From positions 755 to 64,754 of the forward strand of contig CAZVWU010000002.1 of NCBI GenBank assembly GCA_964631205.1: a stretch of 64,000 nucleotides of DNA, read 5' to 3'. Each line of letters begins with the position of its first letter. The stretch's first letter is position 1. The position numbers and the translations under genes are program-made. This document shows positions 3,221 through 38,120 of this stretch, piece by piece. The notes beneath the pieces are model-generated. The model searched no databases. It was given only the letters and a program-made list of their open reading frames with translations, and was not told the DNA's origin. The DNA comes from an uncultured archaeon (GTDB lineage: Archaea; Aenigmatarchaeota; Aenigmatarchaeia; QMZP01; JACQNV01).

Positions 3221-4867
3221 TTACTCGCCGCCCATCCCGTCAGGCATCCCGCCTGGCATTGGGGGTCCGCCCCTTGAGGCTGCTGCAGAAATCATGTCGT
3301 CTATCCTTAAAATAAGCTCTGCAACCTCTGTTGCTGATTTCAATGCCTGCAATTTTATTTTCAAGGGTTCGATGACCCCTGCTTTCAGCATGTCAACCGG
3401 CTGTTCTGTAAATACATCCAAGCCCATGTTTGGGTTTTTGTCATGCTCTGCCCTCAACTGGGCAAGCTTGTCTATTGCATCCAATCCCGCATTCTCTGCA
3501 AGGCTTCTTGGGATTATCTCCATTGCATTTGCGTAAGCAAGTATTGCAAGCTGTTCCTTCCCTTTGAACTTGTCAGCGTATTTCCTCAACTCTTTTGAAA
3601 CCTCTATTTCAGGCGCCCCGCCTCCAGGGACTATCTTCCCGAGCTCCAAGGCTGATGCGAGGCCTTTTACAGCATCTGTCATTCCCCTCTCTATTTCATC
3701 AACAACATGCTCTGTGCCACCTCTCAACAGGATTGTGACTGCTTTTGGGTCTTTGCACTTTTCAACAAATAACATCTGGTCGCCTGCTATCTTTTTCTCC
3801 TGCACCAAACCTGCATACCCAAGATCAGCTGAAGTCAGGTCGTTCAGGCTTGTCACTATCTTTCCGCCTGTAGCGCGCGCAAGGTTTTCAAGATCAGATT
3901 TCTTTACCCTTCTTGCGGCGATTATCCCTTTCTTTGCAAGGTAATGTTGGACCATATCGTCTATGCCTTTCTGGCAGAGCACTACATTCGCGCCTGAGTT
4001 GATAACCTTGTCGGCCATCTGCTTAAGCATCCTTTCCTCATTGTCAAGGAAGGCCTGTATCTTGTCAGGAGAGTCTATGTTTATTTTTGCATCATTTTCA
4101 AGGGTCTTGATTTCCAGTGCCGCATCAAGCAGCGCTATCTTCGCCTTTTCAAGCGATTTTGGCATTCCTGGATGGACGATTTCCTTGTCTATCACAATCC
4201 CGTCAATTAAGATGCTCTCCTGTATTGAGCCACCTTTTTTCTTTTCAAGTTTTACGTTTTCGCTGTCTATTTTAATTCCGCTTGGGCTTTCTTCAGCGAC
4301 TTTTTTAATTGCCGACACTGCAATTTTTGACAAGTCCTCGCCTGCCCGTTCTGCTGATTTGCCTGTCATTGCAGTTGTTGCTATCTGTATCAGTAAAGCA
4401 TCGTCTTTTAATGTTATTGGTTTTGACATTGCCTGCAAAACTTCGAGTGCCCTTTCCTTTGCCAGCCTGAAGCCTTTTGTTATGACAGTGGGATGTATTT
4501 CTTCATCAAGCAGCTCGCCTGCTTTTTTCAGGAGTTCGCCGGAGATTACCACAGCTGTTGTTGTTCCATCTCCAACTTCCTGGTCCTGTGTTTTTGCAAT
4601 CTCAACCATCATCTTTGCTGCAGGATGCTCGATCTGCATATTTTCAAGTATTGTTGCGCCGTCGTTTGTTATTGTGATGTCGCCAAGAGAATCAACAAGC
4701 ATCTTGTCCATGCCTTTTGGACCTAATGTTGTCCGCACTGCATCAGCCACAGCTTTCGCAGCTTCAATATTATTTTTCTGGGCATCCCTTCCTTTATTCC
4801 TGAGTGTGCCTTCAGGCAAAATCAATATCGGCTGTCCGCCTAAACTGCCTATTTGCGCTTGCACCAT
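3221..4867 (-). CDS. ths: thermosome subunit (group II chaperonin, Cpn60/TCP-1 family)
   Basis: 548 aa with GDGTTT ATP-binding motif, [20 protein letters not shown] and a C-terminal GGMP-like tail ([16 protein letters not shown]) typical of archaeal thermosomes. Confidence 0.95.
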
Positions 4868-4961
4868 ATTTATCGCCTAAATTAAAGTATTTTTCACGCC
4901 TTAAAAACGGATAAGTAATATTGTGGTTAAAGCATTTAAGCTTTTCGGGAAATTGAGAATG

Positions 4962-4980
4962 ATATAACAGTGTGATATAT
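4962..4980. repeat. 19-bp direct repeat copy 1 (ATATAACAGTGTGATATAT), imperfect dyad
   Basis: Exact 19/19 match to 6168..6186. It lies ~95 bp upstream of the thermosome start and downstream of the Fic stop. 7 of 9 positions are palindromic about a central T. Confidence 0.7.
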
Positions 4981-5099
4981 ATCATATTTCCAGCTCAAGC
5001 TTTTTCCAAACAGGCTTTGGAGAGGGTCTGGTTGTTGGCCTAAAGGAACTTATCCCCTGTTGGGGTTAGTGAATGCATACCTCTGTCCTGTAACAGCTG

Positions 5100-6056
5100 T
5101 CAGGCGTATTTCGCATAAATCTCAAAGAAATTTCTGTATGTTTTTTTGAACTTTTCAAGGAAAAACCTTTCTATCTTGCTATAATGGCTGTTGTCAGCGG
5201 CTTCCAAACAGTTAAAATATGCTGTTCTGGATGTTTTTCTTACAATCAACGGCGGATAGCCTTTATTCACCAGTATTGCATTCACTAGAAACCTTCCTGT
5301 CCTCCCATTTCCGTCTTCAAATGGGTGGATTTTTTCGAATCTTGAATGGAAAATGGCGGCTGCCTGAAGGGGGTGCATCTTTCCGATGTTGCGGCCATAC
5401 CAGCTGATAAGTTTTGACATCTCAGGATAAACTTTCTCCGGCGAGGTTGTCTCCAGCCTTTTGCCAAGAAGAAAATTCGGGAGTTTTTTATATCCCTGCC
5501 TCGTATCTATGTCTTTCGTCAGGAGCGCATGCATTTTTATTATGCTCCGATGGTCTACACTAAACTTTCCAGCCAGAAGAAGGTCTAAAACCCTTCTTGA
5601 GTTCCTGGTTTCATATATTTCCCTCAAATCCTTGCCTTTAATGGACGTTTTGTCAAAAATAACTATTGCCACGTCTTTCAGCGTAAGGGAATTCCCTTCC
5701 AGGGCGTTTGATTCGTATGTAAAATTGAGGATGAACCTGTCAAAGATGTCCTTTTTTTGTTCTTTCTTGAGTTTTTTCAGGAGGCGTTTGTAATCTACTC
5801 TTGTCGCCTCGATTTTTTTAATCTCTTCTTCTGTGAATATGCTGCCTGCAGTGAAGGTTTTCAATGCCCACAGGATATTCGCTTCCTTTTCCTTTTCCAG
5901 AAAATAGCCGGAATATTTCTTTTCCAGTTTCTTCTGGCTGCCGCCCTCTTTGACCAATTTAGCCAGTTTTCTAACAGACCCATCAGGAAGCCTGACAGAC
6001 TTTACAAGGTAAGTGTACTCTTTCCCGTTTATCCTTTTCCTAGAAACATGGACCAT
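5100..6056 (-). CDS. Fic/Doc family protein (putative AMPylase)
   Basis: 318 aa containing the Fic motif HPFEDGNGRTGR (HxFx(D/E)GNGRxxR). Confidence 0.85.
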   Translation of the reverse strand: MVHVSRKRINGKEYTYLVKSVRLPDGSVRKLAKLVKEGGSQKKLEKKYSGYFLEKEKEANILWALKTFTAGSIFTEEEIKKIEATRVDYKRLLKKLKKEQKKDIFDRFILNFTYESNALEGNSLTLKDVAIVIFDKTSIKGKDLREIYETRNSRRVLDLLLAGKFSVDHRSIIKMHALLTKDIDTRQGYKKLPNFLLGKRLETTSPEKVYPEMSKLISWYGRNIGKMHPLQAAAIFHSRFEKIHPFEDGNGRTGRFLVNAILVNKGYPPLIVRKTSRTAYFNCLEAADNSHYSKIERFFLEKFKKTYRNFFEIYAKYA

Positions 6057-6167
6057 AAGGGATTTGGGGCAGGATAGCCTGTTTCTGCCCCAATTATATT
6101 TAACCCCACAGATATTTAAACCTTCATTTTTTGTGGGGTTAAGGGGTTCGGCAAATACTGTAAATTA

Positions 6168-6186
6168 ATATAACAGTGTGATATAT
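6168..6186. repeat. 19-bp direct repeat copy 2 (ATATAACAGTGTGATATAT)
   Basis: Exact match to 4962..4980. It abuts and overlaps the discriminator base at the 3' end of the candidate tRNA, ~112 bp upstream of the Fic start. Confidence 0.7.
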
Positions 6187-6491
6187 GGGCCCGCTGGGGT
6201 TTTCATATTTCCATAACCCAAATTTATTTTTGTAAATGTTTTCTCTTTGGGTTATAAGGCTTTCTCGATTCCAATTGGACACTGATCTGAAGATCAGTGT
6301 CGTCCCTTTAAAGAGAAAGGGTATAAATCGAACCCAGGACCACCTGCATTTACGCAATGCAGATTTATTCATGGACTAGAAGTTTGACTTCAATAAAATC
6401 CATGTGCCTTATAAGACAGGTGCTCTACCATTGCTCGTCTTTTTCCGGGGCGCGCTTTTTTTGATTTATGAACCGAAAAAGGGCGCTGAGC
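6186..6491 (-). tRNA. candidate tRNA-Ile (anticodon UAU) interrupted by three introns (D-loop, anticodon loop 37/38, T-loop)
   Basis: Minus-strand exons: GGGCCCGTGGCTCAG (6491..6477); AATGGTAGAGCACCTGTCTTATAA (6423..6400); GCAGGTGGTCCTGGGTTCGATT (6338..6317); CCCAGCGGGCCCA (6198..6186). These give a perfect 7-bp acceptor stem (GGGCCCG/CGGGCCC), D-stem GCTC/GAGC, anticodon stem CCTGT/GCAGG (one G-U), T-stem CTGGG/CCCAG, T-loop TTCGATT, and U33/A37 flanking TAT. A TTTATTTAAA box sits ~30 nt upstream. Confidence 0.55.
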
Positions 6492-6558
6492 CACGGGCCC
6501 ATAAGACTAATATAACAAGACCAGATTTAAATAAAGTATTCTAGTTCTTTTGGAAGAA

Positions 6559-8097
6559 TTAACCGGAAAGAGTTCCTGCGCTCTTCTGGACCTCAGGCTG
6601 CTTCTGCCATTCCTTTTTCAGGCCATGGATTTGGGCCAGCCTTTTGAAGAAAATTGCAGCTGATTTTGCTGTCCTTACAGCTTCTGAAGGGCTCTTTAAA
6701 GACTGCACAGTCTTGTAGGCCAGGTATTTTGGGTTTGAATAATATTGCTTGAGAGCGACATCTGCCCATTCCACTAATTCTTTGTTTGTTAAATCTGGCC
6801 TTGATACAAGTGTGTTGTGTTTCCCCTCGCTATCGATCCACTGATCATAATCCCTTGTTGTAAGGTAGCCGTTTTCCTCTGCCCATTTAAATGTGCCTGT
6901 TCCAGGGTAAGCCATTAAAGGGAAGAATTGCGCTGTGTCAGGCATCAGCTTTTTCGCAAAATCAATTGTCGCCTGCATGCTTTTCTTGTTGTCTTTTGGC
7001 AGCCCTAATATAAAACAGCCATTTGTAATTAAACCCGCCTTTCTGACACTTTCCATGAACTCTTCCTGCATCTTTGCTGTCGTGCCTTTTTTCACAGAGT
7101 TCAGCTCATCCTGCTCAGGCGATTCAAAACCAACACACAGCAGCCTGCATCCTGCATCCCTCATCGCCTTCAGAGTCTCATAATCAGTGTTTACCCGCGC
7201 ATTGCAGGACCATTTTATTTTTATCCCTCTCTGAATTATCTCTTTCGAAAGATCGATTGTCCGCTGCTTGTTTAATGGAAATGTATCATCCTCCAGCTGT
7301 ATCTCGCTTATAAAAGGCAGCTCATTCTTGATATACTCAAACTCGTCAGCAACATTTTTCACTGACCTCTGCCTATAGGATGATTTGAAAGGGATGTGGC
7401 AAAAAGAGCAGCTGTAAAGGCATCCTCTCCCTGTCAGTATCGTGACTTCAGGCCATGTCAGGGACGCATAAAAATATTTTTTCATCCCCTCTTCTCCAAG
7501 GTGTTTGTAATAAGTCTCTGAAACAAAAGGGAGTTTGTCAAGATCTTGAATTAACGGCCTTTCAGGAGTGTGGATAAATTTTCCGCCTTGCATAAAAACC
7601 AGACCCTTCACATCATCCAGTTTTTTCCCTGCTTCAATGTGCTGCGCCAATTCCAACGCAGTTTCATCAACCTCCCATCTGATCACAGAATCAATTGCGC
7701 CTTTGCCATGAACAAGCGTCTCTTCAGGCACATTAGAAGGGTGTATTCCCATTACAGAAATATGGATTCCGGGGATCGCAGCCTTTATTTTCGCTGCCTG
7801 CCTGATGTCATTCAAAATAGATGGCGTTGAAGTGTCCATCAGGATGAGGCCGTTCCTGTCTGTAAAGTATTTTTTTGCTTGCTCAACTGTGAAATCATGG
7901 GACCATTCGCTTGCCACTGCATCAACCAGCCAGGTCTTAAAGCCGTTATGCTCAACCCATCCTGCCCCATATGCGAGATAATACGGATGGTAAAAAGTCC
8001 CGCCATTAGTCACGCATGGCGACCTTGACTGCCTGGAATAAAGATTGAGCAATTTGCCATTCCTTTCAAAGGACGGGTTTAAGAAAAGGGTTTTCAT
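6559..8097 (-). CDS. B12-binding domain radical SAM protein
   Basis: 512 aa with a CLYSCSFC (CxxxCxxC) cluster motif preceded by a cobalamin-binding-like N-terminal region. Confidence 0.7.
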   Translation of the reverse strand: MKTLFLNPSFERNGKLLNLYSRQSRSPCVTNGGTFYHPYYLAYGAGWVEHNGFKTWLVDAVASEWSHDFTVEQAKKYFTDRNGLILMDTSTPSILNDIRQAAKIKAAIPGIHISVMGIHPSNVPEETLVHGKGAIDSVIRWEVDETALELAQHIEAGKKLDDVKGLVFMQGGKFIHTPERPLIQDLDKLPFVSETYYKHLGEEGMKKYFYASLTWPEVTILTGRGCLYSCSFCHIPFKSSYRQRSVKNVADEFEYIKNELPFISEIQLEDDTFPLNKQRTIDLSKEIIQRGIKIKWSCNARVNTDYETLKAMRDAGCRLLCVGFESPEQDELNSVKKGTTAKMQEEFMESVRKAGLITNGCFILGLPKDNKKSMQATIDFAKKLMPDTAQFFPLMAYPGTGTFKWAEENGYLTTRDYDQWIDSEGKHNTLVSRPDLTNKELVEWADVALKQYYSNPKYLAYKTVQSLKSPSEAVRTAKSAAIFFKRLAQIHGLKKEWQKQPEVQKSAGTLSG

Positions 8098-9458: not shown

Positions 9459-10373
9459 TTATTCGACTTTTCTTTTCACAGACAGGGAAGGGCCTGCCCT
9501 CTCTATATTATAGAAATATGGTTCTGATTCAGCTGTTATTGAAACGAGCTTTTCAGCCAGCTCGCTGCTCGCCCCCGCCTCAAGCTCGCAATTGAATTCT
9601 CCTTTCTGGCCTTTGAAGAGATCAATTTCATTATAATTTATACATTCTCCTGTTTTGATTTCTATATCGGTTGATGGCGTTGACAGCTTAAGCTTTATTT
9701 TTTTGAGCCCATTTTCACAGGAAGTATCGGTGCATACAAAACCGGTGTCCAGATTGGAAACTGTGACAAAAAGCGGGAAGTTGACTTTCCCTTCTGACAA
9801 AAGCCTTATCTGGCTTGCCTGCCCTCTTGTGTTCATATCTATATCTATCGGGCTCCTTGATTTAAACACGGTCTCAGACTCGACTGCCTCGCCTGAATCC
9901 CTTTTTATTATAAATTTTTCCCTTGGCACGAGCTTTATCCTAGAAACTGTTATTGATTTATATTTGTATTTTATCGAAACCTTTGGCTGGAATGTCTGGT
10001 CTAATGGGAGGCTGCCTGGCGCAGTATAAGAAAATATGCATTGTTTGGATTGCCCGGGCGTGTTGAATTCTGGGTTAGGCGGATTCAGAGAAAATTTTAC
10101 GCAACTATCTACTTTAATGCCCCAGCCATCCAATCCTGTTATTGTTGGCTCTATTTCTTCTGCTTTTTCTGTCCCTGTGTTTCTTACAATAAGGCTCAAC
10201 TTTACGGCTTCCCCTGGAAGTATTTCAACCCCTTGAATATCCGGCTCGAAAGCCTCTATTGAGAGTATTCCGCCGCCAGATGATCCGCCGCCAGATGAGC
10301 AGCCGGAAATGAAAACCACTAAAGCTAAGGATAGAAAAAGCGTATATTTTTTATTGATTTTTGATGAATCCAT
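9459..10373 (-). CDS. secreted lipoprotein, CARDB-like beta-sandwich paralog 1
   Basis: Signal peptide ending VFISGCSSGGGSSGGG (lipobox-like Cys plus Gly/Ser linker), then a VRNTGTEKAEE motif resembling CARDB. Confidence 0.5.
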   Translation of the reverse strand: MDSSKINKKYTLFLSLALVVFISGCSSGGGSSGGGILSIEAFEPDIQGVEILPGEAVKLSLIVRNTGTEKAEEIEPTITGLDGWGIKVDSCVKFSLNPPNPEFNTPGQSKQCIFSYTAPGSLPLDQTFQPKVSIKYKYKSITVSRIKLVPREKFIIKRDSGEAVESETVFKSRSPIDIDMNTRGQASQIRLLSEGKVNFPLFVTVSNLDTGFVCTDTSCENGLKKIKLKLSTPSTDIEIKTGECINYNEIDLFKGQKGEFNCELEAGASSELAEKLVSITAESEPYFYNIERAGPSLSVKRKVE

Positions 10374-10387
10374 ACATAAAGCAATTA

Positions 10388-11344
10388 TTAGAATCCTGTT
10401 GCTGATTTGAGCACTGCTAGTGGCTGCGCAAGGGGCTGCAAAATCTCATAAGTATATTGCAATTCAACTTCTATTGTGGCTTTTTCTGCAGGAGCGCCCC
10501 TTTGTGGTGGGCTTGTAACCCTTAATATACAGGTTGTTTCATAGGACCTCCCAGAATTCAAGTTTATCACTCCGTTCTGGCAGGCAGGGTCTGCGCCTGT
10601 ATAGTCTGGGCTTAACCTGGAAGGCCAGCGGATATTAACCCTAACAGGATATGTGAAATCTTGGCTGGATACTAAACCTTGTGTCACATGGGCTAAGGCT
10701 GGGTTCCCATTTTTATCGATTATTGTCAATTTAACAGGGACTTGAAGGTCGAAGGTGGACCCCTGGGTTGTTGTCCTCACTTCCGGAACCTCTATCCTTA
10801 TATCAAGCGGGCCTGTATCAGCTGTTCCAAATTGTGTTACTAGCCCTTGGCCAGCATCCCTTCTTTGTATGAATGTGTCTGCATCAACAAGCGTGATTGT
10901 CCCGCTGCCTTTCAGCACATTATCATATTTTATGCTTAATTTCGGCTGTATGCTTTGCTGCACAGCATATTGGGGCGTTCTTGAACTGAAGGTAATTGTT
11001 CTTATTGGGCCTGCAAGATTCTGCTCCTGGCTAAACCCTGTAAGATCGCCTAAATTTTGTTCAAATATGCCTGACCATTTTTCTTTGTCTAAAAGTTCTA
11101 CAATATTTACCCGGGTATTCTTTGCCTTTATTGTGCCTTGGTTCTGCACCCTTGCAGTAAACTGGACAGGTTCATTCTGCCTTAATTGTGTGCCTTCCTG
11201 ATTAGACTTGAACTCAAGAATGACGACCCCATTCCCTAAACCTACTGGCGCCTGAGAGCCTTGAGCGCATCCAGAAACCAAAACTATAGAGGCTAATAAT
11301 AGCAGGGTTATATATTTTTTGTTGGGTTTTTTTGATTTTCCCAT
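10388..11344 (-). CDS. secreted lipoprotein, CARDB-like paralog 2
   Basis: Signal peptide ending VLVSGCAQG plus a VQNQGTIKAKN motif. Confidence 0.5.
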   Translation of the reverse strand: MGKSKKPNKKYITLLLLASIVLVSGCAQGSQAPVGLGNGVVILEFKSNQEGTQLRQNEPVQFTARVQNQGTIKAKNTRVNIVELLDKEKWSGIFEQNLGDLTGFSQEQNLAGPIRTITFSSRTPQYAVQQSIQPKLSIKYDNVLKGSGTITLVDADTFIQRRDAGQGLVTQFGTADTGPLDIRIEVPEVRTTTQGSTFDLQVPVKLTIIDKNGNPALAHVTQGLVSSQDFTYPVRVNIRWPSRLSPDYTGADPACQNGVINLNSGRSYETTCILRVTSPPQRGAPAEKATIEVELQYTYEILQPLAQPLAVLKSATGF

Positions 11345-36695: not shown

Positions 36696-38120
36696 TTAAC
36701 TTACCCTGTATATTTTAAAGTTCCCTGACTGGAATATTGACTGCCCAGACGCAGATTTATAGAGCACTACTATTTGTATACCTTTTTCTTTTGCAATCTC
36801 AAATATCCTTTGGCTGGTTTTTTCTTTGTAGGCATTTTTAATCTCTACATAGATGTTTTTGTCAGGGAATTTTGACGGGCTGTAGCTTATTATATACTGG
36901 TCTGACTCGGTGAAGATTATGGGCCGTTTTGCCCAAGGTTTCAGGATGCTCCAGTCAGGCGGAGCGATAAATGTCTCATTTTTCCCTGTATTAGAGTCTA
37001 TCCACTTTCCTACAGCAACAGCGTCAGCTATGTCTCTTGAGTAGTCGGCCATATTTTTTGTTATCCCGTCAAAAATTGTCGAGTAATGTATGCTGCTGAA
37101 ATAAAGTGCGAGTATGCAGACCGACAAGACTCCGGCGGCTTTATTTTTTTTGAACAGGTTGCCAGCAAACCATGCAGAGAATATGAAGGAGAAAAATATT
37201 ACGTATTTATAGGCCCGATATAATGTGAAGAGCAGGATTTTTTCGCTGAACAGCCCAGCCAGGCTCGAAAGCGAGTAGATAGAAATTATAAGAAACCAGC
37301 CGAATATTTCTGTGTTGTTTTTCCTTGCTACAATAAATCCTAGAATTATCAGAGGCAAATATTTTGCTGTCGTGATCAGGCCGCTCATGAGGTTTGCATA
37401 CGGGACAGCCTGAAGGATTTCTCCTGTTGCTTCAGGCCCCTGCGCCGTTTTTTCGAAGAGGAAAGGGGATGATATGGCTGCGAAGGCTAATGCTGAAAGC
37501 AGGAAAAGCCTGTATTTCTTTTCTGATATCAGGGAATATGAAAGCATCAAAAGAACAGGCACAATGCTAAAGATATGGAAATATGAAAGGGTCCCGAGCC
37601 CAGCAAAGCACGGGATTGAATACTTTTCCCTGTCTTTAAGGAAAAGATATAATATCAGAGGGGCAAATGCAAAGACGAAATCTTTAGGCAATAGCTCGCT
37701 GACCCCTATTTCATCTGCACCCATAAAATGGGTGAATGCCAGCAAAAAGGCGGCTAACAGGGCTAGGTTTTTGTTTTTTAAAAGCAGACTAGCCAGCAGA
37801 TAGGCTGAAATTACAAAAACTGTTTTTAGAGCAAGGAAAAGGATAAAATAGGTTAGCATCATGTCAGAAAGTATATTATAAACTGCAGCTATTAGAGAAA
37901 AAAGCAGTGTTGGGTAGATTTTTATATATTCGTTGATCACAGGATCGTTGACAAAATACTGGTCTTCTGAAAGCCTGTATGCTGCTGGAATTTGCAATGT
38001 TTGGTCGTTGTTTTCCCAATTCCCCTGGATATGTGTAAGGGAAAGGTTTGCAAATTTAAATTCCAGCAGAGTTGATATTATTATCAGTAAGAGAAGTATG
38101 CTTATTCTTTTTTTATCCAT
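36696..38120 (-). CDS. polytopic membrane protein, possible GT-C-type glycosyltransferase/polymerase
   Basis: 474 aa, ~10 or more TM helices, with a C-terminal soluble domain. Confidence 0.45.
   Translation of the reverse strand: MDKKRISILLLLIIISTLLEFKFANLSLTHIQGNWENNDQTLQIPAAYRLSEDQYFVNDPVINEYIKIYPTLLFSLIAAVYNILSDMMLTYFILFLALKTVFVISAYLLASLLLKNKNLALLAAFLLAFTHFMGADEIGVSELLPKDFVFAFAPLILYLFLKDREKYSIPCFAGLGTLSYFHIFSIVPVLLMLSYSLISEKKYRLFLLSALAFAAISSPFLFEKTAQGPEATGEILQAVPYANLMSGLITTAKYLPLIILGFIVARKNNTEIFGWFLIISIYSLSSLAGLFSEKILLFTLYRAYKYVIFFSFIFSAWFAGNLFKKNKAAGVLSVCILALYFSSIHYSTIFDGITKNMADYSRDIADAVAVGKWIDSNTGKNETFIAPPDWSILKPWAKRPIIFTESDQYIISYSPSKFPDKNIYVEIKNAYKEKTSQRIFEIAKEKGIQIVVLYKSASGQSIFQSGNFKIYRVS

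What the first reader, a model, noticed from the sequence alone, without database searches (positions are those of the whole stretch)
4962..6186. Fic gene bracketed by a perfect 19-bp direct repeat that abuts the tRNA 3' end
ATATAACAGTGTGATATAT occurs exactly twice, at 4962..4980 and 6168..6186, and flanks only the Fic/Doc gene. The second copy begins at the discriminator base of the candidate tRNA. A tRNA 3' end plus flanking direct repeats is the classic footprint of site-specific integration (attL/attR), so Fic may be a mobilised cargo cassette whose integrase is absent. The inner flanks also show a weak inverted similarity: CTGTTGGGGTTA near 5058..5072 versus the reverse complement of 6130..6142.
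Basis: partly seen in the sequence, partly recalled or inferred. Interest (0 to 1): 0.65.

Follow-up and report, generated by a model that had tools for sequence, protein, structure and literature searches.

The report
Duplicated regulator-binding palindrome flanking a Fic gene
The two identical 19-base repeats around the Fic gene are real, but they look like two copies of a conserved binding site for a small DNA-binding regulator, bracketing a slot that holds different accessory genes in related archaea, rather than scars left when Fic integrated.

Summary
ATATAACAGTGTGATATAT occurs exactly twice (4962-4980, 6168-6186). The second copy starts at the discriminator base of a real tRNA-Ile(UAU) gene with three introns.

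The attL/attR reading is not supported.
- The 19-mer is a near-perfect 17-bp palindrome, ATATAACAnTGTTATAT.
- In every related Aenigmatarchaeota locus recovered it lies a fixed distance upstream of the thermosome TATA element.
- In related DPANN archaea the same palindrome overlaps the start codon of a small Cro/HTH_3-type regulator gene in four independent homologues. This is a typical self-regulating operator.
- The closest relative (thermosome 93% identical) has the same tRNA-adjacent copy and a thermosome-proximal copy, but they bracket a ParE-like gene pair, not Fic. The bracket is therefore not specific to a Fic integration.
- Fic orthologues elsewhere lack the repeat and carry their own conserved promoter.
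- No integrase is nearby, and the repeat contains no tRNA sequence beyond the discriminator base.

Best reading: a duplicated operator flanks a hot spot for toxin-like cargo between the tRNA and the thermosome gene. The two copies were probably homogenised by gene conversion or recombination.

Regulator binding, its presence in this genome and any recombination role are untested.

The parts
4962..4980 (-). Copy 1 ('palB'). Minus strand reads ATATATCACACTGTTATAT, i.e. the palindrome ATATAACAnTGTTATAT with one mismatch. It lies 17 nt upstream of the thermosome BRE/TATA-like element and 94 nt upstream of the thermosome ATG.
   Evidence: Exact match. The orthologous palindrome is invariant in the alignment of six thermosome upstream regions.
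6168..6186 (-). Copy 2 ('palA'). Identical 19-mer; its first base on the minus strand is discriminator A73 of the tRNA. It lies 111 nt upstream of the Fic ATG and 25 nt upstream of Fic's own operator.
   Evidence: The 19-mer plus the next 6 nt (TAATTT) are 25/25 identical in L088.
4935..4944 (-). Thermosome BRE/TATA-like element AAAGCTTAAA.
   Evidence: AAGCTTAAA is invariant across the six relatives aligned. Promoter function is inferred from archaeal promoter architecture.
3221..4867 (-). Thermosome (group II chaperonin) gene.
   Evidence: Pfam Cpn60_TCP1. Homologues 72-93% identical in Aenigmatarchaeota-type MAGs.
5100..6056 (-). Fic gene, 318 aa, with the catalytic motif HPFEDGNGRTGR and an in-chain inhibitory-helix-type motif SNALEG (class II-like).
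   Evidence: Pfam PF02661 E=5e-19; translation; 2481 homologues, mostly DPANN.
6100..6142 (-). Fic's own promoter: inverted repeat TTAACCCCACA / TGTGGGGTTAA around TATA TTTAAATAT (6112-6120).
   Evidence: Conserved in Fic orthologues L084-L087 in unrelated contexts. Homology among orthologues begins exactly here; inverted repeat I5.
6138..6155 (-). Decayed copy of the thermosome promoter region. TTAAG...TTCGG.AAAT matches 4935-4952 at nearly the same offset from the 19-mer.
   Evidence: Local alignment, p about 0.03 against random 40-nt pairs; also visible.
6186..6500 (-). tRNA-Ile(UAU) gene with three introns (D loop, anticodon loop, T loop).
   Evidence: In silico splicing followed by ARAGORN gives tRNA-Ile(tat). 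Exons are conserved in L004, L005 and L088.
6200..6326 (-). T-loop intron, 127 nt, at position 59/60. Specific to this lineage.
   Evidence: Absent in L088 and L005; L004 has a different intron at 53/54.
4982..4992 (-). 11-mer TGGAAATATGA next to copy 1. The same 11-mer at 6203-6213 ends the T-loop intron.
   Evidence: p about 8e-4 for flanks of this size. Unexplained.
5059..5070 (+). Third GGGGTTA-type element, 30 nt downstream of the Fic stop codon. It resembles a half-site of the Fic operator.
   Evidence: Sequence. Not present downstream of Fic orthologues. May be chance.

Best explanation
The 19-mer is a protein-binding palindrome (an operator), not an integration scar.

Its thermosome-proximal copy is the ancestral site. 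It lies about 17 bp upstream of the thermosome BRE/TATA element, where a homodimeric helix-turn-helix regulator would control chaperonin transcription. The likely regulator is a 123-124-aa Cro/HTH_3-like protein with a C-terminal four-cysteine motif, which carries the same palindrome over its own start codon in related DPANN archaea.

The tRNA-proximal copy comes from an older duplication of this control region (palindrome plus promoter, roughly 60-75 nt). That duplication predates the split from the closest relative. The interval between the two copies, just downstream of tRNA-Ile, is a hot spot where toxin-like accessory genes come and go. Fic arrived with its own promoter and operator, and joins the duplicated promoter remnant at a shared CTTAA.

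The perfect identity of the two copies in this genome reflects selection on the site plus gene conversion or recombination between the copies.

Shown: the repeat, the tRNA, conservation of the palindrome and its position, the self-regulating arrangement in relatives, the different cargo in the relative, and the non-synteny of Fic.
Inferred: regulator binding, co-regulation of the cargo with the thermosome gene, the duplication history, and gene conversion.
For: - The palindrome core ATAACAnTGTTAT matches perfectly upstream of the thermosome gene in L004, L005, L088, L089-92 and L093-95 (1 mismatch in the window). The palindrome and AAGCTTAAA are the invariant blocks of the alignment.
- Four independent homologues of the HTH protein (100%, 80%, 61% and 57% identity) all have ATATAACA(G/C)TGTTATA(T/A) at -15/-16, just after a TATA box. 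The protein matches HTH_3.
- L088 (thermosome 93% aa, 85% nt identity) has tRNA 3' end + ATATATCACACTGTTATAT + TAATTT, identical to the window. This is followed by a ParE-like gene and a 56-aa ORF, then the perfect palindrome, then the thermosome gene.
- Neutral intergenic DNA between the two genomes is only 50-69% identical, whereas palA plus 6 nt is 25/25 identical.
- Fic orthologues lie next to HicAB, MNT/HEPN and other genes and lack the repeat.
- Perfect copies of the palindrome also lie upstream of other accessory genes in relatives: an AbiE-like pair in L004, a GNAT gene in L005 and a 391-aa Fic-domain gene in L086.
- The window's palB differs from the perfect palindrome of L088 and L089 at two positions, and both changes match palA. 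My estimate is about 6e-4 by chance.
- The gene-proximal flanks of the two copies retain weak collinear similarity.
Against: - No homologue of the candidate regulator is encoded in the 64-kb window. The rest of the genome could not be searched.
- No binding or expression data exist.
- Only two strong sites occur in the window, so a regulon is inferred from relatives only.
- Spacing between the palindrome and the nearest TATA differs at the non-thermosome sites.
- The bare palindrome also occurs as a bacterial TetR operator. Sequence alone therefore does not identify the binding protein.
- The 11-mer shared between the T-loop intron end and the flank of copy 1 is not explained by this model.
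- The two copies bracketing exchangeable cargo in two genomes would also fit a recombination role.
Confidence: 0.68

Rival explanations
1. attL/attR of a degraded integrative element. An element carrying Fic integrated next to the tRNA 3' end by site-specific recombination, duplicating a 19-bp core, and later lost its integrase.
For: The location directly at a tRNA 3' end, the perfect direct repeat, accessory non-syntenic cargo and variable content of the slot in relatives.
Against: - The repeat overlaps the tRNA by the discriminator base only, whereas tRNA-targeting elements normally duplicate a tRNA 3' segment (established knowledge).
- No integrase domain within 10 kb.
- The thermosome-proximal copy is ancestral and conserved in genomes without a second copy.
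- Both copies exist around a different cargo in L088.
- Fic orthologues elsewhere lack the repeat.
- No match to the 19-mer and no close Fic relative in viral contigs.
- The dyad has a 1-nt centre, unlike tyrosine-recombinase core sites with 6-8-bp spacers (established knowledge).
Confidence: 0.1
2. The palindrome pair is a recombination substrate for cassette exchange. Cargo genes (Fic, ParE-like) are swapped by homologous or site-specific recombination between the two flanking palindromes, in addition to or instead of any regulatory role.
For: - Two closely related genomes have different cargo bounded within about 20 nt of the same two palindromes.
- In the window lineage palB has been converted to the palA sequence at both differing positions.
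- Other palindrome copies lie next to toxin-type accessory genes.
Against: - L004, L089-92, L093 and L005 have cargo or spacer upstream of the thermosome palindrome but no second copy on the far side.
- Fic orthologues elsewhere are not flanked by the palindrome.
- 19 bp is short for homologous recombination.
- No recombinase is linked to the locus.
- The self-regulating arrangement at the HTH gene already explains why the palindrome is conserved.
Confidence: 0.15
3. Chance repeat or assembly artefact.
For: None beyond the AT-rich composition of the repeat.
Against: 0 matches are expected from shuffles. An independent contig, L002, is identical across both copies. Both copies are conserved in L088.
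Confidence: 0.01

Closest known systems
Archaeal heat-shock regulator Phr and its palindromic operators (Pyrococcus furiosus)
   Same: A palindromic site in promoters of heat-shock genes, bound by a regulator that also controls itself. Phr is described as recognising a palindromic sequence and repressing heat-inducible genes (PMC10746257).
   Different: The sequence is different. The site lies upstream of BRE/TATA at the thermosome gene, a position more typical of archaeal activators (my knowledge). The candidate regulator is a Cro/HTH_3-type protein with a Cys4 tail, not a Phr-type winged helix. Heat induction is untested.
Self-regulating Cro/XRE-family (HTH_3) repressors with dyad operators
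   Same: A small HTH_3 protein whose gene start is overlapped by a 17-bp perfect dyad just after the TATA box, in four homologues.
   Different: An archaeal (DPANN) lineage with a C-terminal four-cysteine motif. Additional sites lie at the thermosome gene and at accessory genes. No binding data.
tRNA-linked integrative elements / genomic islands (attL/attR direct repeats)
   Same: Next to a tRNA 3' end, direct repeats flanking accessory cargo, variable content among relatives.
   Different: No integrase. The repeat excludes the tRNA body. The repeat is a conserved regulatory palindrome that predates the cargo, and one copy is present in genomes without any duplication.
Class II Fic AMP-transferases (self-inhibited Fic proteins)
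   Same: The HPFx(D/E)GNGRxxR motif and an (S/T)xxxE(G/N) motif N-terminal to the core in the same chain; Pfam Fic.
   Different: A DPANN-specific subfamily with an about 100-aa N-terminal extension and its own conserved inverted-repeat promoter. The target is unknown.
Archaeal multi-intron tRNA genes with bulge-helix-bulge (BHB) introns
   Same: Introns at non-canonical positions, as reported for ARMAN and other archaea whose splicing endonucleases have broad specificity (PMC3239211; PMC5829648).
   Different: Here the gene is a tRNA-Ile(UAU) with three introns, and the T-loop intron is present or absent among close relatives.

Membership tests
attL/attR of a tRNA-targeting integrative element | Integrase/recombinase gene within or next to the bracketed segment | tested here: not met
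   The bracket holds only Fic. The precomputed Pfam list for 10 kb on each side shows no integrase or recombinase domain.
attL/attR of a tRNA-targeting integrative element | The direct repeat includes a 3' segment of the tRNA, so that the gene is restored | tested here: not met
   Only discriminator A73 overlaps the repeat. CCCCAGCGGGCCC occurs once.
attL/attR of a tRNA-targeting integrative element | Relatives show an empty site with a single repeat copy | tested here: not met
   The closest relative, L088, has both copies around a different cargo. More distant relatives have one copy but other DNA between it and the tRNA. No clean empty site was found.
attL/attR of a tRNA-targeting integrative element | The same cargo elsewhere carries the att sequence | tested here: not met
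   The recovered loci holding Fic orthologues (L084, L086) have no palindrome flanking that gene. The 19-mer is absent from viral contigs.
Transcription-factor operator (dyad-symmetric site) | Dyad symmetry | tested here: met
   16 of the 17 positions match ATATAACAnTGTTATAT. Relatives have the perfect form.
Transcription-factor operator (dyad-symmetric site) | Conserved position relative to the core promoter of orthologous genes while flanks diverge | tested here: met
   Alignment of six thermosome upstream regions. The palindrome and AAGCTTAAA are invariant and mostly 15-17 nt apart, about 27 nt in L089. The spacer to the ATG is 69% identical between the window and L088.
Transcription-factor operator (dyad-symmetric site) | A cognate DNA-binding protein with the site at its own promoter | tested here: inconclusive
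   Met in related DPANN lineages, in four HTH_3 homologues. No homologue in this 64-kb window. The rest of the genome was not searchable.
Transcription-factor operator (dyad-symmetric site) | Physical binding and an effect on transcription | not testable with these tools
   Needs gel-shift (EMSA), DAP-seq or transcript data.
Fic/Doc family (Fic AMP-transferase type) | Fic domain with the HxFx(D/E)GNGRxxR active-site motif | tested here: met
   PF02661 E=5e-19; HPFEDGNGRTGR.
Fic/Doc family (Fic AMP-transferase type) | Class II: inhibitory (S/T)xxxE(G/N) motif within the same chain, N-terminal to the core | tested here: met
   SNALEG at about residues 116-121. The motif is assigned by eye from the published consensus (my knowledge); the structure was not modelled.
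Integron-like gene cassette | A cassette-borne recombination site of the attC type and a linked integrase | tested here: not met
   No integrase. The palindrome has a 1-nt centre. Cargo in other relatives lacks a second site.
Archaeal intron-containing tRNA | Exons assemble into a canonical cloverleaf | tested here: met
   ARAGORN calls tRNA-Ile(tat) on every in silico spliced variant.
Archaeal intron-containing tRNA | Bulge-helix-bulge (BHB) motif at each splice site | tested here: inconclusive
   For the T-loop intron a BHB can be drawn by hand: outer helix CUGGG/CCCAG, central helix UUCG/UGAA, bulges AU|U and AA|C. The minimum-free-energy fold does not show it. The other two introns were not resolved.

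The most novel reading that the evidence does not exclude
The two palindromes may define an exchangeable cargo slot. On this reading a small Cro-like regulator's operator, duplicated at the 3' end of tRNA-Ile, both places incoming toxin-type genes (Fic, ParE-like) under chaperonin-type stress control and serves as the homology or recognition site through which cassettes are swapped. In this lineage the last swap would be linked to gain of the 127-nt T-loop intron, whose 3' end shares an 11-mer with the cassette's far junction.
Probability: 0.12. Interest if true: 0.7.

Novelty: new member of a known kind. Interest (0 to 1): 0.33.

Why it matters
The finding turns an apparent mobile-element footprint into something more ordinary: a duplicated operator.

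It also gives a concrete, testable regulator-operator pair for DPANN archaea, where transcriptional regulation is essentially uncharacterised. The pair is a Cro/HTH_3 + Cys4 protein and ATATAACAnTGTTATAT, linked to the single chaperonin gene.

The tRNA-Ile-thermosome interval emerges as a recurrent landing site for toxin-like genes in Aenigmatarchaeota-type genomes. If the regulator is stress-responsive, accessory toxins placed there would be switched together with the chaperonin.

Tried and rejected
- ARAGORN and Rfam on the raw locus found no tRNA. This was resolved by manual exon assembly and in silico splicing.
- Weaker palindrome-like sites in the window (31034, 48652) are inside ORFs and were dismissed as chance. 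The weaker match at 11297 (4 mismatches) was not followed up.
- The viral-contig scan for the 19-mer found nothing, and the scan for Fic relatives found only hits of 34% identity or less.
- I searched for homology between the 119-nt spacer downstream of Fic and the T-loop intron or the relatives' spacers. Nothing appeared beyond the 11-mer.
- A 15-mer match to the intron tail at 37574 is inside a coding region and is chance.
- Transposon target-site duplication was rejected. There are no terminal inverted repeats just inside the 19-mers, and 19 bp is long for a target-site duplication.
- The RNA-hairpin or terminator role was rejected by inspection. The dyad has a 1-nt centre and AU-rich arms, and an oligo-T tract follows.
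- The candidate regulator was sought in the window and in the loci fetched up to that point by tblastn; only L006 itself matched.

Full report
**1. The observation**

ATATAACAGTGTGATATAT occurs exactly twice in the window, at 4962-4980 and 6168-6186. No other match appears even with 3 mismatches, and none is expected from shuffles.

All genes here are on the minus strand:
- thermosome, 3221-4867
- Fic, 5100-6056
- a radical-SAM gene, 6559-8097

ARAGORN and Rfam report no tRNA. The minus strand 6500->6186 nevertheless reads as exons GGGCCCGTGGCTCAG.. / ..TGGTAGAGCACCTGTCTTATAA / GCAGGTGGTCCTGGGTTCGAT / CCCCAGCGGGCCCA, separated by three inserts. Every in silico spliced variant is called tRNA-Ile(tat) by ARAGORN. 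The same exons recur in relatives.

An independent Logan contig (L002) is identical over window 4683-6360 and contains both repeats. The G+C content of Fic is not deviant.

**2. What the 19-mer is**

Read on the minus strand it is ATATATCACACTGTTATAT. This is the 17-bp palindrome ATATAACA-n-TGTTATAT with one mismatch, plus two further bases.

The organism is a DPANN archaeon of the Aenigmatarchaeota type. I recovered six related thermosome loci:

| Locus | Thermosome identity |
|---|---|
| L088 | 93% |
| L089-92 | 86% |
| L004 | 84% |
| L093-95 | 75% |
| L005 | 74% |

In every one of them the perfect palindrome core lies 86-140 nt upstream of the thermosome ATG. In the window and four of the five relatives it lies 15-17 nt upstream of a conserved AAAGCTTAAA element; L089 has a longer spacer and the variant ACGCTTAAA. 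The palindrome and that element are the only invariant blocks of the alignment. Copy 1 (4962-4980) is therefore the orthologue of a conserved cis element of the thermosome promoter. It is not a junction created by an insertion.

**3. A candidate binding protein**

In a Nanoarchaeota locus (L006) the palindrome overlaps the ATG of a 123-aa ORF, directly after a TATA box. The protein matches HTH_3 and has a C-terminal Cys4 motif.

Its homologues were retrieved with their DNA: P0242 at 80% (annotated Aenigmarchaeota), P0250 at 61% and P0253 at 57%. All have ATATAACA(G/C)TGTTATA(T/A) at -15/-16 relative to their own start codon.

A dyad over the start of an HTH gene, conserved across this range of divergence, is the standard signature of a self-regulating operator. 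This is inference from architecture; no binding data exist. No homologue lies within the 64-kb window, and the remainder of the genome could not be searched.

**4. The second copy and the cargo**

The closest relative, L088, reads as follows:
- ...GGTCCTGGGTTCGATCCCCAGCGGGCCC
- ATATATCACACTGTTATAT-TAATTT, identical to the window over 25 nt
- a ParE-like gene (101-370) and a convergent 56-aa ORF
- the perfect palindrome TTATATAACACTGTTATAT
- the thermosome promoter and gene

So the two-palindrome bracket exists in a genome whose thermosome gene is only 85% identical at the nucleotide level. Neutral spacers between the two genomes are 50-69% identical. In L088 the bracket holds a different cargo.

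More distant relatives have other content just upstream of the thermosome palindrome, and no second palindrome:
- L089-92: VapBC
- L004: a 156-aa ORF of unknown function
- L093: a 195-aa ORF

The tRNA itself was found upstream only in L004 and L005.

Fic orthologues at 85%, 75% and 71% identity lie in unrelated neighbourhoods, next to HicAB, MNT/HEPN and tRNA-synthetase genes. Aligning the loci with DNA available (L084-L087) shows that homology starts exactly at Fic's own promoter and ends at the stop codon. That promoter is the inverted repeat TTAACCCCACA...TTTAAATAT...TGTGGGGTTAA (window 6142->6100). The 19-mer is not part of the Fic unit.

No integrase domain is recorded within 10 kb. The 19-mer and close Fic relatives are absent from viral contigs.

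**5. History inferred**

The gene-proximal flanks of the two copies keep a weak collinear similarity: TTAAG...TTCGG.AAAT, i.e. the thermosome BRE/TATA region (p about 0.03). This suggests an old duplication of the control region of roughly 60-75 nt, from which only the palindrome has stayed intact. In L088 the tRNA-proximal palindrome is followed after about 18 nt by a TATA-like TTTAAAC just ahead of the ParE-like start. This is consistent with a duplicated promoter driving the cargo (inference). In the window, Fic's own promoter joins this remnant at a shared CTTAA.

In L088 and L089 the thermosome-proximal site is the perfect 17-bp palindrome (all relatives keep the perfect 13-bp core). The window's copy differs from L088's at two positions, and both changes reproduce the tRNA-proximal copy. 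By my estimate this has a chance probability of about 6e-4. I therefore infer gene conversion or recombination between the copies in this lineage. This is the one piece of evidence that keeps a recombination role alive.

**6. Rivals**

- attL/attR of a Fic element fails four defining tests (see the membership table).
- A cassette-exchange role for the palindromes is not excluded. Nothing outside the window/L088 pair supports it, and the self-regulating arrangement of section 3 already explains the conservation.
- Chance and assembly artefact are excluded.

**7. Comparison with known systems**

Functionally the nearest analogue is a palindromic operator of an archaeal stress regulator such as Phr of Pyrococcus (PMC10746257). 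The sequence, the position upstream of TATA and the candidate protein family all differ from Phr.

The bare palindrome also turned up as the tandem operator beside bacterial TetR genes. This shows that it is a generic HTH-dimer type of site, and that sequence alone does not name the binder.

Fic itself has the canonical HPFEDGNGRTGR motif and an in-chain SNALEG motif, so it is class II-like. It is thus a self-inhibited enzyme rather than one half of a toxin-antitoxin pair.

**8. Loose ends**

An 11-mer, TGGAAATATGA, directly precedes both 19-mers on the minus strand. At copy 2, however, it forms the end of the tRNA's 127-nt T-loop intron and is separated from the 19-mer by the 16-nt 3' exon. 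For flanks of this size p is about 8e-4, although the same 11-mer (within a 15-nt match to the intron tail) also occurs by chance in a coding region. Both 11-mer copies, and the intron itself, are absent from L088. I found no mechanism that accounts for this.

**9. Verdict**

The integration reading is mostly wrong, and the regulatory-motif reading is well supported by comparative evidence. Novelty is modest: a new operator/regulator pair and a cargo hot spot in a poorly known lineage.

Noticed in passing
window 6186-6500 (minus strand); L004 8998-9323; L005 8290-8485; L088 1-28: tRNA-Ile(UAU) gene with three introns (D loop about 53 nt, anticodon loop about 61 nt, T loop 127 nt). Neither ARAGORN nor Rfam detects it. 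The T-loop intron (59/60) is present only in the window; L004 has a different intron at 53/54; L088 and L005 have none. So intron gain or loss is recent. A UAU anticodon implies that AUA is decoded without a modified CAU tRNA (my knowledge).
   Followed up: partly
window 4982-4992 and 6203-6213: The 11-mer TGGAAATATGA precedes both 19-mers. At the tRNA it is the end of the T-loop intron, separated from the 19-mer by exactly the 3' exon. Both copies are lineage-specific. Unexplained.
   Followed up: partly
window 6100-6142; L084 about 2640-2690; L085; L086 about 9950-10000: Fic carries its own conserved promoter, with an inverted repeat TTAACCCCACA / TGTGGGGTTAA around the TATA box. It is retained in orthologues in unrelated genomic contexts and is probably a dedicated operator.
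   Followed up: partly
window 6060-6094: A 35-nt insertion between the Fic TATA box and the ATG, absent from orthologues. It contains a hairpin, GGGGCAG...CTGCCCC.
   Followed up: no
L006 6025-6041; L216 2986; L217 2986; L219 2985: A family of 123-124-aa Cro/HTH_3-like proteins with a C-terminal Cys4 motif. Each gene has the palindrome over its own start codon, and in most of these loci it lies close to a TrmB-family gene.
   Followed up: yes
L088 101-531; L089 243-883; L004 9372-9842; L093 9287-9874: The position just upstream of the thermosome palindrome holds a different small accessory gene or pair in each relative: ParE-like, VapBC, a 156-aa unknown and a 195-aa unknown.
   Followed up: partly
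L086 12436-12452; L004 15697-15713; L005 18693-18709: Perfect palindrome copies in relatives lie upstream of a second, 391-aa Fic-domain gene, next to an AbiEi/AbiEii-like pair (my reading of the translations, not domain-tested), and upstream of a GNAT acetyltransferase.
   Followed up: partly
L096, L101, L105, L114, L117, L131, L135-L137, L174 and others: The same 17-bp palindrome, often as overlapping tandem copies, lies beside bacterial TetR-family regulator genes in gut and other metagenomes. Some of these tandem sites contain ATATAACAGTGTGATATA, almost the window's 19-mer.
   Followed up: partly
L122 3562-3710: Three perfect palindrome copies within 150 nt on a 54% G+C contig from the same JGI sample (3300025317) as L092. 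The organism and function are unknown.
   Followed up: no
window 5059-5070: A third GGGGTTA-type element lies 30 nt downstream of the Fic stop codon and resembles the Fic operator half-site. It is absent downstream of orthologues and may be chance (about 0.3% for an 8-mer in this spacer).
   Followed up: partly
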